Source of the DNA: an uncultured Chloroherpeton sp.
GTDB taxonomy: Bacteria > Bacteroidota > Ignavibacteria > Kapaibacteriales > UBA2268
Length of the DNA stretch: 46,658 nucleotides
Assembly (NCBI GenBank): GCA_964405755.1
Contig: CAYOPF010000003.1
Span: 1 to 46,658, forward strand
Direction: 5' to 3'
Part shown: one piece after another, positions 2,079-2,951 of the stretch
Position numbering within the stretch: position 1 is the stretch's first letter
Layout of the letters: each line of letters begins with the position of its first letter
The notes under the pieces: model-generated
What the model was told of the DNA's origin: nothing
The model's database searches: none
What the model saw: the letters and a program-made list of their open reading frames with translations, nothing else
Made by a program: the position numbers and the translations under genes

Positions 2079-2951
2079 ATGCTCGAAAAAGACATTGAAA
2101 ATTTAATAGCAAGACACCCAGACGAATTCTTTCCAAACTCGGGGTTTACCCTCATTGGACAGCAAATCAAATTAGGTAAGTGTTACGCAGACATACTGTT
2201 TCAAGACAAACACAACAGAAAAATTATAGTTGAAGTTAAACGTGGCATCCTTTCTCGTGATGCTTCGGGACAAGTAATGGAGTATTATGGTTTACTCAAA
2301 ATGGAAAGTCCTGACGACAATATAGAGCTTGTTTTATGTGCAAACATAATTCCACCTGAACGGAAAACATTTCTTGAAAGAGTTGGTATTGAGTGCAAGG
2401 AACTAGGAATTAATTTAATCAACCAAGTAGCTCAAAAGGTGAATTACAAATTCATAAACGCTCCCCAACAAACAAAAACTATCAGTTCAAGTGGTGACTT
2501 GCCGACCTCTGAACGGACTTGGATTTTTCAAGCTAATCCACAACGATACGACATTATCAACGCACTTGCAGACGATGAAATTGGACTTGATATGCACTGG
2601 TTAGTCAATCAACACAAGAAAGAGATTGTTAAAGGCGACACCGGAATTATTTGGCTATCGGGTAAAGAAGCTGGAATTTATGCAATAACAGAAATTGTAA
2701 CTGACCCTCAAATAATGGGAGAACCCGAAGCAGAAAAAAAATATTGGGCCGACGAGGACGACAAGGAAGGAGAAAAACTAAGAGTGAAAATGAAGATTGT
2801 AAAAAATCTATTGAACCGACCGCTTTCTAAAGAGAGAATTATTCAAACAAATGGACTACAAATGATGAGTATATTTCGTAATCCAAGAGGGACAAATTTT
2901 TATGTAACACCAGACGAGTGGAATAAAATTAAAGAACTGATTAACGAATGA
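2079..2951 (+). CDS. NucS/DUF91-like PD-(D/E)xK nuclease fused to a C-terminal EVE (PUA-like) domain; predicted modification-dependent (Type IV) restriction enzyme
   Basis: The N-terminal ~110 aa carry ADILFQD...IIVEVKRG...QVMEYYG (D...ExK plus QxxxY, RecB/NucS-like). The C-terminal ~150 aa start TWIFQANPQRYDI and contain W-x-V-x-Q...KGDTGIIWLSG..AGIYA, a pattern typical of EVE domains fused to Type IV enzymes. Confidence 0.65.
   Translation: MLEKDIENLIARHPDEFFPNSGFTLIGQQIKLGKCYADILFQDKHNRKIIVEVKRGILSRDASGQVMEYYGLLKMESPDDNIELVLCANIIPPERKTFLERVGIECKELGINLINQVAQKVNYKFINAPQQTKTISSSGDLPTSERTWIFQANPQRYDIINALADDEIGLDMHWLVNQHKKEIVKGDTGIIWLSGKEAGIYAITEIVTDPQIMGEPEAEKKYWADEDDKEGEKLRVKMKIVKNLLNRPLSKERIIQTNGLQMMSIFRNPRGTNFYVTPDEWNKIKELINE

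What the first reader, a model, noticed from the sequence alone, without database searches (positions are those of the whole stretch)
2079..2951. NucS/DUF91-type nuclease fused to an EVE reader domain, directly beside a methylating R-M system
The N-terminal third carries a PD-(D/E)xK signature (ADILFQD...VEVK...QVMEYY) of the NucS/RecB-like type. The C-terminal half (TWIFQANPQRYDI...KGDTGIIWLSGKEAGIYA) looks like an EVE/PUA-like domain, a fold known to read modified bases and found fused to Type IV restriction nucleases. A single-chain reader-nuclease next to a probable N4mC-forming methyltransferase raises a compatibility question. The EVE enzyme must ignore the neighbour's mark, or the two are functionally linked, for example as complementary barriers against modified and unmodified phage DNA. 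The specificity of this fusion is not predictable from sequence.
Basis: inference. Interest (0 to 1): 0.65.

Follow-up and report, generated by a model that had tools for sequence, protein, structure and literature searches.

The report
Cassette-borne NucS–EVE restriction nuclease candidate
The gene really does fuse a NucS-type DNA-cutting domain to an EVE modified-base reader, so it is probably a one-protein enzyme that cuts modified foreign DNA, and it lies next to the restriction-modification system only because both are separate mobile gene cassettes stacked in one integron-like array.

Summary
ORF 2079-2951 (+) encodes a 290-aa protein. Residues 3-110 form a NucS C-terminal-type PD-(D/E)xK nuclease in which D38, E52, K54 and Q65 never vary. 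Residues 147-286 form an EVE domain. Pfam, an AlphaFold2 model and Foldseek all agree.

The protein belongs to a compact, strongly conserved family. It has about 600 clusters at 90% identity but only about six representatives at 50% identity, spread patchily over many bacterial and archaeal phyla. This EVE subtype is otherwise fused to PLD nucleases and McrB/Mrr modules. The nuclease module is otherwise fused to many different C-terminal domains. The best reading is a single-chain modification-dependent (Type IV) restriction enzyme. Its target base is unknown and nothing has been tested biochemically.

The neighbour is a BstYI-type R-M system (probably RGATCY, N4mC), but the two are not linked. 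Neither gene set accompanies the other elsewhere. Both are separate integron-type gene cassettes bounded by about 134-nt attC-like hairpins. These hairpins form same-strand arrays in at least 120 metagenome contigs. They show stem covariation and the classical G|TT cassette-boundary signature.

This is a new member of a known kind, of moderate interest.

The parts
2079..2951 (+). NucS_C-EVE fusion gene (290 aa), the candidate single-chain modification-dependent nuclease
   Evidence: ORF listing. Pfam NucS_C plus EVE, both above the gathering cut-off. 602 homologues share the same two-domain architecture.
2085..2408 (+). Nuclease domain, aa 3-110, NucS C-terminal-type PD-(D/E)xK. Catalytic codons: D38 at 2190-2192, E52 at 2232-2234, K54 at 2238-2240, Q65 at 2271-2273.
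   Evidence: Pfam. Alignment to NucS 2vld and EndoMS 5gke. Foldseek E 3e-8, rmsd 2.0. The four residues are invariant in alignment A1.
2409..2516 (+). Variable linker, aa 111-146. Residues 128-138 are predicted to be disordered.
   Evidence: AlphaFold2 pLDDT below 50 at 128-138. This is the only poorly conserved stretch in A1.
2517..2936 (+). EVE (PUA-like) reader domain, aa 147-286. Invariant aromatic and polar residues: W148, Q151, P154, Y157, D158, W174, W192, S194, Y201, G271-T-N-F274, W281.
   Evidence: Pfam E 4e-17. Foldseek hits to 2gbs and 1zce. Invariant columns across sequences down to 41% identity.
2018..2078 (+). 5' leader of the NucS-EVE cassette, starting at the TT of the G|TT crossover (G is at 2017)
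   Evidence: Nucleotide homology to L040 (95% aa relative) starts at 2016. L040 reads GTTATGCGGC at this point, and its attC R'' box GACCGCATAAC is the reverse complement of that.
2996..3113 (+). attC-like site of the NucS-EVE cassette. The R'' box GCATAAC is at 2998-3004. The 3' half (L'/R') has eroded and no GTT core remains, so the cassette is probably fixed in place.
   Evidence: nhmmer hit at 3015-3113 to model positions 25-123, E 9e-24. The copy is intact in L145 (R' GTTAAGC) and L001. Sequencing depth here is 10-300 times that of the flanks.
1891..2017 (+). ORF-less cassette made up of a second attC type, a 108-nt hairpin at 1917-2024
   Evidence: ssDNA fold dG -32 to -35 kcal/mol, z -7.8 and -8.2. 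Its 5' end GTTCATCGAG matches the reverse complement of its own R'' (GTTCATAGAG) at 9 of 10 positions, read directly from the sequence.
1760..1892 (+). attC-like site that closes the R-M cassette (AAC at 1768-1770, G|TT at 1890|1891)
   Evidence: nhmmer E 4.5e-9 over model positions 4-135. Hairpin z -3.3. Depth about 1100x against about 5x in the flanks in run X1.
163..1128 (+). Methyltransferase of the neighbouring cassette (beta-class N6_N4 MTase, TSPPY motif, probably N4mC)
   Evidence: Pfam PF01555 E 1.6e-53. PADLOC MTase_II E 6e-77. M.BstYI is described as 'possibly' N4mC in PMC2890505.
1128..1742 (+). BstYI-type Type II restriction endonuclease (predicted to cut RGATCY)
   Evidence: PDB 1sdo E 8e-71 over the full length. 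Pfam Endonuc-BglII. PADLOC REase_II E 3e-74.
1..47 (+). Right half of another copy of the 1917-2024 attC hairpin (identical to 1974-2020). The contig starts inside it. G|TT at 44|45 opens the R-M cassette.
   Evidence: 47-nt perfect direct repeat. The window is the whole 46,658-bp contig. The 5' sequence GTTACCAGCAAGG matches the reverse complement of R'' at 1758-1770 (GTTACCTGCTGGG) at 10 of 13 positions.

Best explanation
ORF 2079-2951 encodes a compact, stand-alone, modification-dependent (Type IV-like) restriction endonuclease.

**Proposed mechanism.** The C-terminal EVE domain flips a modified base out of duplex DNA into an invariant aromatic pocket (inferred). Its binding places or licenses the N-terminal NucS-type PD-(D/E)xK domain to cut nearby (D38/E52/K54, metal-dependent). 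The enzyme probably works as a dimer so that both strands are cut (inferred). Formally, the EVE domain stands where canonical NucS has its mismatch-binding N-terminal domain, which also holds flipped bases. The target modification is not known. By analogy with characterised EVE enzymes, modified cytosine (5mC or 5hmC) is the first guess.

**Genomic setting.** The gene is an integron-type gene cassette: TT at 2018, then the ORF, then an attC-like hairpin at 2996-3113. It sits at the distal end of a chromosomal cassette array in an Ignavibacteria-like genome. The adjacent BstYI-type R-M system is a different cassette, and an ORF-less cassette lies between them. The two defence genes are therefore neighbours because the array stockpiles cassettes, not because they work together.

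**What is shown and what is inferred.**
- Shown: the domain architecture, conservation of the catalytic and pocket residues, the modular relatives, the lack of any conserved partner, and the cassette structure.
- Inferred: modification dependence, base flipping, dimerisation and anti-phage function.
For: **Architecture and folds:**

**Conservation.** The catalytic residues D38, E52, K54 and Q65 and many aromatic EVE residues are invariant in 26 sequences. The EVE residues also hold in 23 more diverse sequences.

**The modularity typical of Type IV enzymes.**
- Only about 6 of the 150 best-scoring 50%-identity representatives match along the whole length.
- The same nuclease module (E 1e-50 to 1e-63) carries many unrelated C-terminal domains that Pfam does not recognise.
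- The same EVE subtype (E 1e-26 to 1e-59) is fused to a PLD nuclease, to McrB_N(DUF3578)+AAA_5, to Mrr_N+AAA_5 and to NucS_C+DUF5655.

**No cognate methyltransferase.** No MTase or REase homologues occur in the family loci. No DNA MTase family recurs among 121 neighbouring genes.

**Defence-island neighbours in part of the loci.** These include PDC-S41, mad3, a Type I REase, DpdF, Csx1, GajB and PsyrT.

**Precedents in the literature.**
- EVE-PD(D/E)XK fusions, in either domain order, are listed as putative Type IV enzymes (PMC7641849).
- EVE-HNH enzymes cut 5mC/5hmC DNA by base flipping (PMC6765204; PMC7897488).
- A NucS-like nuclease fused to an inactive EndoIII sensor restricts phages with modified G (PMC12191111).

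**Cassette structure.**
- A 139-nt attC-like consensus was built from at least 120 metagenome contigs.
- All copies lie on one strand in 55 of 55 multi-copy contigs. The median spacing is 1.34 kb. The longest ORF is co-oriented in 84 of 96 cases.
- 12 of 13 stem pairs show compensatory changes.
- The 7 nt after GTT complement the R'' box of the next attC (mean 5.2 of 7; 43 of 70 score at least 6). They do not complement the site's own R'' (3.2) and score no better than random pairs there (3.0; P(score at least 6) = 0.035).
- The same NucS-EVE cassette occurs in different arrays. It also occurs as the first gene next to a tyrosine recombinase in L001 and L007.

**Independence of the R-M system:**. 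R-M and defence cassettes in integrons are documented (PMC10661359; bioRxiv 10.1101/2024.07.02.601719).
Against: - There is no biochemical or genetic test of this family. No paper in the searched library mentions a NucS-EVE or DUF91-EVE fusion.
- PADLOC has no model for it. Only weak matches to the nuclease domain appear, E about 5e-4.
- Some members sit alone among housekeeping genes, stably across samples (Planctomycetes).
- The family is unusually conserved for a defence gene, whereas Bell et al. associate fast-evolving EVE domains with defence.
- No full-length homologue was found in the phage or plasmid collections.
- The window copy is the most distal cassette. Its attC is eroded and there is no expression evidence, so it could be silent.
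- The dimerisation domain of NucS is absent.
- The recombinases next to related arrays lack the IntI-specific insertion, so the array is 'integron-like' rather than a proven integron.
Confidence: 0.6

Rival explanations
1. A DNA-repair or genome-maintenance nuclease. The EVE domain would recognise a damaged or aberrantly modified base in the host's own DNA, and the NucS-type domain would incise next to it. This would be a lesion-specific analogue of NucS/EndoMS mismatch repair.
For: The nuclease domain's closest solved relatives are the mismatch-repair enzymes NucS and EndoMS. Sequence conservation across phyla is very high. In anammox Planctomycetes the gene is solitary and stably placed among housekeeping genes.
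Against: - The NucS N-terminal domain is absent, and the NucS equivalog models score 37-42 bits against cut-offs of 216-252.
- The distribution is sparse and patchy: 39 hits among 185,579 species genomes. This is a lower bound, because the scan used only two peptide patterns.
- The gene moves as a cassette between arrays.
- The same EVE subtype is fused to McrB, Mrr and PLD restriction modules.
- Several loci lie in defence islands.
Confidence: 0.1
2. An RNA-directed or abortive-infection effector. The EVE domain would bind modified RNA, as YTH/EVE domains do. The NucS_C-like nuclease would degrade RNA or ssDNA, halting growth on infection or acting as a toxin.
For: EVE and PUA domains were first regarded as RNA binders (PMC6765204). 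EVE-containing CoCoNuT systems are predicted to target RNA (PMC11090510, listed). Foldseek also matches the nuclease half to Card1 and Can2 at E 4e-3 to 8e-2. From my own knowledge, those enzymes cut ssRNA and ssDNA.
Against: The best structural matches are the dsDNA-cleaving NucS and EndoMS, with rmsd 2.0. The characterised EVE-nuclease fusions act on DNA. No antitoxin-like partner gene is conserved.
Confidence: 0.12
3. One reading: NucS-EVE and the BstYI-type R-M system form a functionally coupled pair. Either they are complementary barriers selected together, or the EVE enzyme reads the neighbour's N4mC mark.
For: They are adjacent and on the same strand in the window. From general knowledge, defence genes that cluster can act additively.
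Against: - They do not co-occur in 31 full-length family loci, in the 95% and 89% relatives, or in the R-M-anchored loci L051-L053.
- They are separated by two attC-like sites and an ORF-less cassette.
- Each has its own cassette boundaries (and the window sequence).
- If the enzyme read RGATm4CY it would attack its own host.
Confidence: 0.03

Closest known systems
EVE-HNH modification-dependent endonucleases (VcaM4I, TspA15I, CmeDI)
   Same: A single chain made of an EVE reader and a nuclease, with no cognate methyltransferase. The EVE domain flips 5mC or 5hmC into a hydrophobic aromatic pocket (PMC6765204; PMC7897488). The window protein keeps an invariant Trp (W192) at the 'FYHS'-motif position that is W82 in VcaM4I. 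It also keeps a Gln (Q151) in the first strand, where VcaM4I has Q10. Both correspondences rest on motif position only.
   Different: - The nuclease is a NucS-type PD-(D/E)xK domain, not HNH.
- The linker is short and disordered, not the autoinhibitory helix of VcaM4I.
- VcaM4I was not among the top 50 Foldseek hits.
- The specificity is untested.
EVE-PD(D/E)XK fusions catalogued as putative Type IV enzymes by Bell et al. 2020 (PMC7641849)
   Same: The same pair of domain superfamilies in one protein. The catalogue says EVE can be at either end, and predicts these proteins to be modification-dependent restriction enzymes.
   Different: The catalogue is computational and generic. Neither NucS nor PF01939 appears in its text or held supplements. 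DUF91 appears only as the names of two proteins in the supplements, with other architectures. The cassette-borne, highly conserved 290-aa family described here is not singled out.
PvuRts1I/AbaSI family (N-terminal PD-(D/E)XK-type nuclease plus C-terminal SRA reader)
   Same: The domain order is the same (N-terminal nuclease, C-terminal PUA-superfamily reader), and from my own knowledge the size is similar, about 290 aa. These enzymes prefer ghmC over 5hmC, and both far over 5mC (EcoSal Plus review PMC12707154).
   Different: From my own knowledge the nuclease is Vsr-like, not NucS-like. No sequence relationship was detected here.
NucS/EndoMS mismatch endonuclease
   Same: The catalytic domain has the same fold and the same D-E-K plus QxxxY residues.
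   Different: - It lacks the N-terminal dimerisation and mismatch-binding domain.
- It fails the NucS equivalog cut-offs.
- An EVE domain is attached at the C-terminal side, taking over the role of base sensor.
- Its distribution is patchy and mobile, not that of a lineage-wide repair gene.
END-Mag (NucS-like PD-DExK nuclease plus inactive EndoIII sensor; PMC12191111)
   Same: A NucS-like nuclease used as the effector of a single-chain modification sensor. It has been shown experimentally to restrict phages with modified guanine.
   Different: The sensor domain is iEndoIII/Ogg1-like, not EVE. Homology of the two nuclease domains was not tested here.
Integron gene cassettes that carry defence genes (BRiCs; the XbaI R-M cassette)
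   Same: A small defence gene, or an R-M pair, is followed by an attC hairpin. Cassettes are stacked in same-strand arrays with G|TT crossover boundaries (literature).
   Different: No integrase lies in the window. Recombinases next to related arrays match NF040815 ('tyrosine recombinase/integron integrase'). They fail TIGR02249 and lack the IntI4 181-247 segment. The hosts are Ignavibacteriota and Bacteroidota rather than Proteobacteria.

Membership tests
NucS/EndoMS mismatch endonuclease | C-terminal PD-(D/E)xK catalytic domain with the D, E and K residues | tested here: met
   Pfam NucS_C scores 45.2 bits against a cut-off of 24. D38, E52 and K54 align to the NucS and EndoMS residues. Foldseek rmsd 2.0.
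NucS/EndoMS mismatch endonuclease | N-terminal dimerisation and mismatch-binding domain; full-length equivalog score | tested here: not met
   The match covers only the C-terminal part of the NucS models (positions 130-237 of 250). The scores are 41.6 and 37.2 bits against cut-offs of 216 and 252. The protein begins directly with the nuclease domain.
EVE domain (PF01878, PUA superfamily) | Profile match above the curated cut-off, and a PUA-like pseudobarrel fold | tested here: met
   62.9 bits against a cut-off of 23, covering 2-144 of 145 profile positions. Foldseek matches 2gbs, 1zce and ASCH 5y6b.
EVE domain (PF01878, PUA superfamily) | A conserved aromatic pocket for a flipped base | tested here: inconclusive
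   W148, W174, W192, Y201 and F274 are invariant. By motif position, W174 and W192 fall at the 'HW' and 'FYHS' motifs that correspond to W26 and Y82 of 2eve, and W192 to W82 of VcaM4I. No structure-based superposition on a DNA complex was possible.
Type IV (modification-dependent) restriction endonuclease of the PUA-nuclease fusion kind | A modification-reader domain and a nuclease domain in one polypeptide | tested here: met
Type IV (modification-dependent) restriction endonuclease of the PUA-nuclease fusion kind | No cognate methyltransferase travels with the gene | tested here: met
   No MTase or REase homologue occurs in the family loci. No DNA MTase Pfam family is found in 2 or more of 121 neighbours. 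The MTase in the window belongs to a separate cassette.
Type IV (modification-dependent) restriction endonuclease of the PUA-nuclease fusion kind | Cleavage that depends on a modified base; restriction of modified phage or plasmid DNA | not testable with these tools
   This needs expression and cleavage or plaque assays.
Integron gene cassette | An attC site 3' of the ORF: an imperfect palindrome of 55-150 nt with R''(..AAC)/R'(GTT..) cores, a spacer, an L stem and conserved structure | tested here: met
   - The 139-nt consensus has CGCTAAC...GTTAGCG ends.
- AAC and GTT are invariant or nearly so.
- 12 of 13 stem pairs covary.
- The window copy at 2996-3113 has R'' but an eroded 3' half.
- The site is intact in L145 and L001. 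L040 keeps the full-length site, but its R' core reads GTC instead of GTT.
Integron gene cassette | Crossover at G|TT, so that the start of a cassette complements the R'' of its own (downstream) attC | tested here: met
   Against the next attC the mean is 5.21 of 7 (43 of 70 score at least 6). Against the site's own attC it is 3.18, and against random pairs 2.97. In the window the scores are 10 of 13 (R-M cassette), 9 of 10 (ORF-less cassette) and 7 of 10 (NucS-EVE cassette; 9 of 10 in L040).
Integron gene cassette | Arrays of co-oriented attC sites separated by mostly single, co-oriented ORFs | tested here: met
   55 of 55 multi-copy contigs use one strand only. The median spacer is 1.34 kb. 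The longest ORF is co-oriented in 84 of 96 cases.
Integron gene cassette | An IntI integrase with the IntI-specific additional domain next to attI at the head of the array | tested here: not met
   No integrase lies in the window, and the contig ends inside the array. The recombinases next to related arrays fail TIGR02249 (199-234 bits against 265). They align end to end with XerA 5hxy and lack IntI4 residues about 181-247. Three of them pass NF040815.
BstYI/BglII-family Type II R-M (the neighbour) | A REase homologous to BstYI over its full length, with an adjacent amino-methyltransferase | tested here: met
   1sdo E 8e-71, aligning residues 1-204 to 1-203. PF01555 MTase, whose stop overlaps the REase start at 1128. 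The recognition sequence and the N4mC product are inferred, not tested.

The most novel reading that the evidence does not exclude
The array that carries NucS-EVE and the BstYI-type R-M system is not a canonical integron. It would be a distinct integron-like platform, run by an XerA-like tyrosine recombinase (NF040815) that lacks the IntI-specific insertion. It would use a structure-conserved attC family of about 134 nt that is widespread in environmental Ignavibacteriota and Bacteroidota. Through such platforms, a single-gene Type IV enzyme of unknown (possibly new) base specificity would be passed between bacterial and archaeal phyla.
Probability: 0.2. Interest if true: 0.7.

Novelty: new member of a known kind. 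Interest (0 to 1): 0.45.

Why it matters
If the prediction holds, this 290-aa protein would be the first characterised EVE enzyme with a NucS-type nuclease. It would be a very compact modification-dependent cutter, possibly useful as an epigenetic mapping reagent. About 600 close relatives are available for mining different specificities.

The context also shows how such genes spread. They travel as roughly 1-kb gene cassettes in attC arrays of little-studied environmental phyla, stacked next to classical R-M cassettes. That puts barriers against unmodified and modified DNA side by side without any mechanistic coupling.

The array-associated recombinases lack the IntI signature. This raises a testable question about which enzymes can run cassette arrays.

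Tried and rejected
- **Functional pairing with the R-M system.** I tested it from both sides (NucS-EVE-anchored and R-M-anchored loci) and rejected it.
- **Hairpin 1917-2024 taken alone as an attC.** It looked unconvincing at first. It has no spacer bulge and no similar hairpin downstream of the gene, and an exact pattern scan of the metagenomes gave 0 hits. The idea revived only after read depth exposed the high-copy repeats and the 24-mer scan found the arrays.
- **Avoidance of RGATCY as evidence that the REase has been resident for long.** There are 9 sites against 36 expected from the dinucleotide model. This is fully explained by a general 3-fold depletion of GATC, because the order-4 expectation is 8.9. 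Rejected.
- **Rfam.** No family matched in 1-3300, even at E up to 1.
- **Sigma-70 promoter and terminator scan.** No more matches than in shuffled sequence, and the model does not suit this phylum.
- **Profile search of the EVE half against PDB sequences.** It gave spurious repeats from de novo TIM barrels and only a weak match to 2gbs, so no residue-level mapping onto VcaM4I was possible.
- **Exact look-up of window proteins in the contig index.** Not on record.
- **Generic attC detectors.** Two crude detectors of my own were insensitive and even missed known copies. I used them only to point out clear cases (L005, L007, L023).
- **RNA runs for expression evidence.** None found.
- **Phage collection.** No homologue. 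The plasmid collection gave only EVE-only matches.
- **Canonical IntI next to the arrays.** Not found. The recombinases lack the insertion.
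Full report
**1.

ORF 2079..2951 (+) has an ATG start and encodes 290 aa. Pfam-A places NucS_C (PF01939) on residues 3-110 (E 1.1e-11, 45 bits, cut-off 24). It places EVE (PF01878) on residues 147-286 (E 4.2e-17, 63 bits, cut-off 23).

They align with the catalytic D/E/K of P. abyssi NucS (2vld) and T. kodakarensis EndoMS (5gke).

An AlphaFold2 model built from a 26-sequence alignment (mean pLDDT 81, pTM 0.65) shows two folded domains joined by a disordered linker at 128-138. 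Foldseek against the PDB returns EndoMS/NucS for the N-terminal half (E 3e-8, rmsd 2.0-2.3 Å over about 110 columns). For the C-terminal half it returns the founding EVE structures 2gbs and 1zce (E 5.5e-7 and 5.2e-6), followed by ASCH and weak MspJI matches.

The protein is not a NucS orthologue. It lacks the N-terminal domain and scores 37-42 bits against NucS equivalog cut-offs of 216-252.

**2. The family**

The word-indexed search found 602 proteins. All 120 listed have the same two Pfam domains and a length of 281-309 aa. They are 62-95% identical to the query. Source names include Ignavibacteriae, Bacteroidales, Deltaproteobacteria and Planctomycetes.

A pattern scan of one genome per species found 39 loci. 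These include Neomarinimicrobiota, Elusimicrobia, Omnitrophota, Caldisericia, Chloracidobacterium and four archaeal MAGs. They also include one cultured isolate, Solitalea agri MAHUQ-68.

In the alignment, D38, E52, K54 and Q65 are invariant, as is a set of aromatic and polar residues in the EVE half: W148, Q151, P154, Y157, D158, W174, W192, Y201, GTNF271-274 and W281. By motif position, W174 and W192 fall at the 'HW' and 'FYHS' positions that line the EVE pocket. W192 corresponds to W82 of VcaM4I, which stacks on the flipped 5mC or 5hmC (PMC7897488). This mapping rests on motifs only. I could not superpose the model on a DNA complex.

**3. Modularity points to a restriction role**

An exhaustive profile search of 1.84 billion 50%-identity representatives gave 3,357 hits. 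Among the 150 best-scoring representatives, only about six match along the whole length. The two halves recombine freely.
- The nuclease module (E 1e-50 to 1e-63) is attached to many different C-terminal domains of 110-290 aa that Pfam does not recognise.
- The same EVE subtype (E 1e-26 to 1e-59) occurs alone. It also occurs fused to a PLD/NgoFVII-type nuclease, to McrB_N (DUF3578) plus an AAA_5 GTPase, to Mrr_N plus AAA_5, and to NucS_C plus DUF5655.

An exchangeable sensor on a fixed nuclease, and one sensor shared with McrB, Mrr and PLD modules, is the signature of modification-dependent restriction enzymes described in the literature. Bell et al. list EVE-PD(D/E)XK fusions, in either order, as putative Type IV enzymes (PMC7641849). 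Lutz et al. and Pastor et al. showed that EVE-HNH enzymes cut 5mC/5hmC DNA by base flipping. Yee et al. showed that a NucS-like nuclease fused to an inactive EndoIII sensor restricts phages with modified G (PMC12191111).

No paper in the library mentions this NucS-EVE fusion itself. The Bell supplements name DUF91 only for two proteins of other architectures.

**4. The neighbour**

ORF 163..1128 is a beta-class N6_N4 methyltransferase with a TSPPY motif IV. ORF 1128..1742 matches BstYI (1sdo) over its whole length at E 8e-71. M.BamHI and M.BglII are N4mC enzymes, and M.BstYI is 'possibly' one (PMC2890505). So 'probable N4mC, probably RGATCY' is a fair inference, but it has not been tested.

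**5. No functional link**

- tblastn with the window's MTase and REase found nothing in the 39 family loci, 31 of them full-length with flanks of up to 8 kb.
- Among 121 genes within two positions of a family member, no Pfam family occurs more than three times, and no DNA methyltransferase family occurs twice.
- PADLOC finds scattered defence neighbours: PDC-S41 three times, mad3 twice, and single hits to a Type I REase, DpdF, Csx1, GajB and PsyrT. Some loci are therefore defence islands, but there is no fixed partner.
- The 95%-identical P0001 sits beside a DDE transposase with no R-M.
- The Planctomycetes copy sits alone among housekeeping genes in eight samples.
- The same R-M pair (REase 92% aa, 78.7% nt over exactly 159-1742) lies between nifU and hypothetical genes in another Ignavibacteria MAG, without NucS-EVE. 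Its 90%-identity clusters hold 141 and 219 members, with source names from Ignavibacterium, Bacteroidota, Burkholderiaceae and Thermoproteota.

**6. Why they are neighbours: both are gene cassettes**

*The first clues.* Window 1-47 is identical to 1974-2020, and the window is the entire contig. The contig therefore breaks inside a repeat.

Laying Logan contigs from four metagenomes on 1-3300 showed depths 10 to more than 200 times those of the unique flanks. This held at 1761-1980 and at 2971-3190 (for example 1108x against about 5x in X1, the probable source).

*The repeat family.* An exact 24-mer from 3066-3089 occurs in at least 120 metagenome contigs from hot springs, groundwater, lakes and wastewater. 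Aligning them gives a 139-nt consensus whose ends are CGCTAAC...GTTAGCG. It folds as a hairpin with a 7-bp outer stem, an asymmetric spacer, a 12-bp inner stem with bulges and a variable centre.

*Four tests of the attC reading.*
- An HMM of the consensus finds up to 7 copies per contig. All copies lie on one strand in 55 of 55 multi-copy contigs. The median spacing is 1.34 kb, and the longest intervening ORF is co-oriented in 84 of 96 cases.
- In 57 copies the AAC and GTT cores are invariant or nearly so.
- 12 of 13 stem pairs show compensatory double changes.
- The decisive test concerns the 7 nt that follow GTT. They complement the R'' box of the next site downstream (mean 5.2 of 7; 43 of 70 score at least 6). 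They do not complement the site's own R'' (3.2). Random pairs score 3.0, with P(score at least 6) = 0.035. This is the classical mark of integron cassettes, which recombine at G|TT.

*The window read in this frame.*
- 1-47: a partial attC, with G|TT at 44|45.
- 45-1890: the R-M cassette, which ends in the attC at 1760-1892. Its boundary complementarity is 10 of 13.
- 1891-2017: an ORF-less cassette that is itself a 108-nt hairpin of a second attC type (z about -8). Its boundary complementarity is 9 of 10.
- 2018 onwards: the NucS-EVE cassette. Its attC starts with R'' GCATAAC at 2998-3004 and matches the model to 3113. Its 3' half is eroded and has no GTT.

Housekeeping genes follow (leuS, hisS, ispD, priA, tsaE, asd). 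NucS-EVE is therefore the most distal cassette and is probably immobilised.

*The same cassette elsewhere.* Nucleotide homology to L040 runs from 2016 to 3008. In L040 the cassette starts GTTATGCGGC, which complements its own R'' (GACCGCATAAC), and the attC is present with GTT mutated to GTC. In L145 (89% aa) the attC is intact, with R' GTTAAGC, and another cassette follows. In L001 (74% aa) the attC begins 16 nt after the stop.

attC-like flanks with complementary R boxes also follow the gene in three other loci:
- Solitalea agri (CGCTAAC..GTTAGC);
- a Neomarinimicrobiota MAG (ACACAAC..GTTGTG);
- a Methanobacteriota MAG (ATATAAC..GTTATAT).

R-M and small defence cassettes in integrons are already documented (PMC10661359; bioRxiv 10.1101/2024.07.02.601719).

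**7. What is not settled about the array**

No integrase lies in the window. In L001 and L007 a tyrosine recombinase is divergently adjacent to NucS-EVE. Homologues lie in about ten of the 120 attC-bearing contigs, mostly upstream of the array and in the same orientation.

These proteins hit the integron-integrase model TIGR02249 best or second best, but below its cut-off (199-234 bits against 265). Three pass NF040815, 'site-specific tyrosine recombinase/integron integrase'. The L001 protein aligns end to end with XerA (5hxy). Against IntI4 (2a3v) it aligns in two pieces that skip IntI4 residues about 181-247, the region of the IntI-specific insertion.

One defining feature of integrons was therefore tested and not met in the relatives. 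I call the array integron-like (a CALIN in IntegronFinder terms) and leave the recombinase open.

**8. Mechanism, with its status**

- Shown: the architecture, the intact catalytic triad, the conserved aromatic EVE residues, the absence of a cognate methyltransferase, restriction-type relatives of both modules, and cassette mobility.
- Inferred: the EVE domain flips a modified base. Modified cytosine is the first guess by analogy. In VcaM4I the N4 amino group donates two hydrogen bonds, so an N4-methyl group would fit poorly if the pocket is similar, which would make the enzyme compatible with the neighbour. The nuclease then cuts nearby, probably as a dimer.
- An analogy rather than evidence: in NucS the N-terminal domain holds the flipped mismatched bases (my own knowledge of the EndoMS-DNA structure 5gke), and here an EVE domain occupies the role of base sensor.

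I give the Type IV reading about 0.6, the cassette reading about 0.85, and obligate coupling to the R-M system about 0.03.

**9. Verdict**

Its most intriguing suggestion, a functional link with the methylating R-M system, is not supported. A cassette-array context explains the adjacency instead.

The gene is a new and untested member of a kind that has already been catalogued computationally. Interest is moderate (0.45). It is raised somewhat by the gene's mobility as a cassette across phyla and by the widespread attC family whose associated recombinases lack the IntI signature.

Noticed in passing
window 1760-1892 and 2996-3113; loci L054-L173: An attC-like hairpin family of about 134 nt (consensus ends CGCTAAC...GTTAGCG) occurs in at least 120 metagenome contigs from hot springs, groundwater, lakes and wastewater. 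The copies form same-strand arrays with about 1.3-kb spacing. They show stem covariation and the G|TT cassette-boundary signature.
   Followed up: yes
window 1-47 = 1974-2020; hairpin 1917-2024: A 47-nt perfect direct repeat brackets the R-M genes. It is the right half of a very stable 108-nt hairpin (z about -8) that appears to be a second attC type forming an ORF-less cassette. The contig, which is the whole window, starts inside the left copy, so the assembly broke within the array.
   Followed up: partly
window 84-110 joined to 1753 onward (run X1): One high-depth (210x) Logan contig joins position 110 directly to 1753 and so skips the R-M genes exactly. Homology to the R-M pair in L051 also covers only 159-1742. 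The R-M genes may have entered a pre-existing small cassette by some route other than attC recombination, or a variant without the R-M genes may coexist. This is unexplained.
   Followed up: no
L001 474-1430 (-), L007 2358-3290 (-), L152 11368-12456 (+), L157 3867-4985 (+): Tyrosine recombinases lie next to the arrays, and in L001 and L007 they are divergently adjacent to NucS-EVE. Their best matches are the integron-integrase and XerA models. They lack the segment that corresponds to IntI4 residues 181-247. Three pass NF040815 and none passes TIGR02249.
   Followed up: partly
whole window: GATC is depleted 3-fold (52 observed against 154 expected). CATG (0.25) and CTAG (0.33) are depleted too. 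The apparent avoidance of RGATCY (9 against 36) is fully explained by the GATC depletion, so it says nothing specific about the resident BstYI-type enzyme.
   Followed up: yes
proteins P0165-P0285 (relatives of window aa 1-140): The same NucS_C-type nuclease module (E 1e-25 to 1e-63) is fused to many different C-terminal domains of 110-290 aa that have no Pfam annotation. Several recur, for example P0180/P0203/P0227 and P0219/P0230. These are candidate new sensor domains for modified DNA.
   Followed up: partly
window 3106-3903 (+): A 265-aa ORF has no Pfam match and what looks like a signal peptide starting around M12-M15. Its longest possible start overlaps the eroded end of the NucS-EVE attC. 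The true start is probably further downstream.
   Followed up: no
window 1684-2136 (-): A 150-aa antisense ORF spans the two attC hairpins and the start of the NucS-EVE gene. It is almost certainly spurious, a by-product of the palindromic repeats.
   Followed up: no
L018 1812-3800, L025 9047-11032, and probably L024 5996-7975: A protein of about 660 aa from the Schlafen-group-3 helicase / PDC-S41 family (E 2e-284) lies directly next to NucS-EVE in three loci, apparently L018, L025 and L024 (assigned by ORF size only). It lies downstream in L018 and L025 and upstream in L024. It is the only recurrent defence-type neighbour.
   Followed up: no
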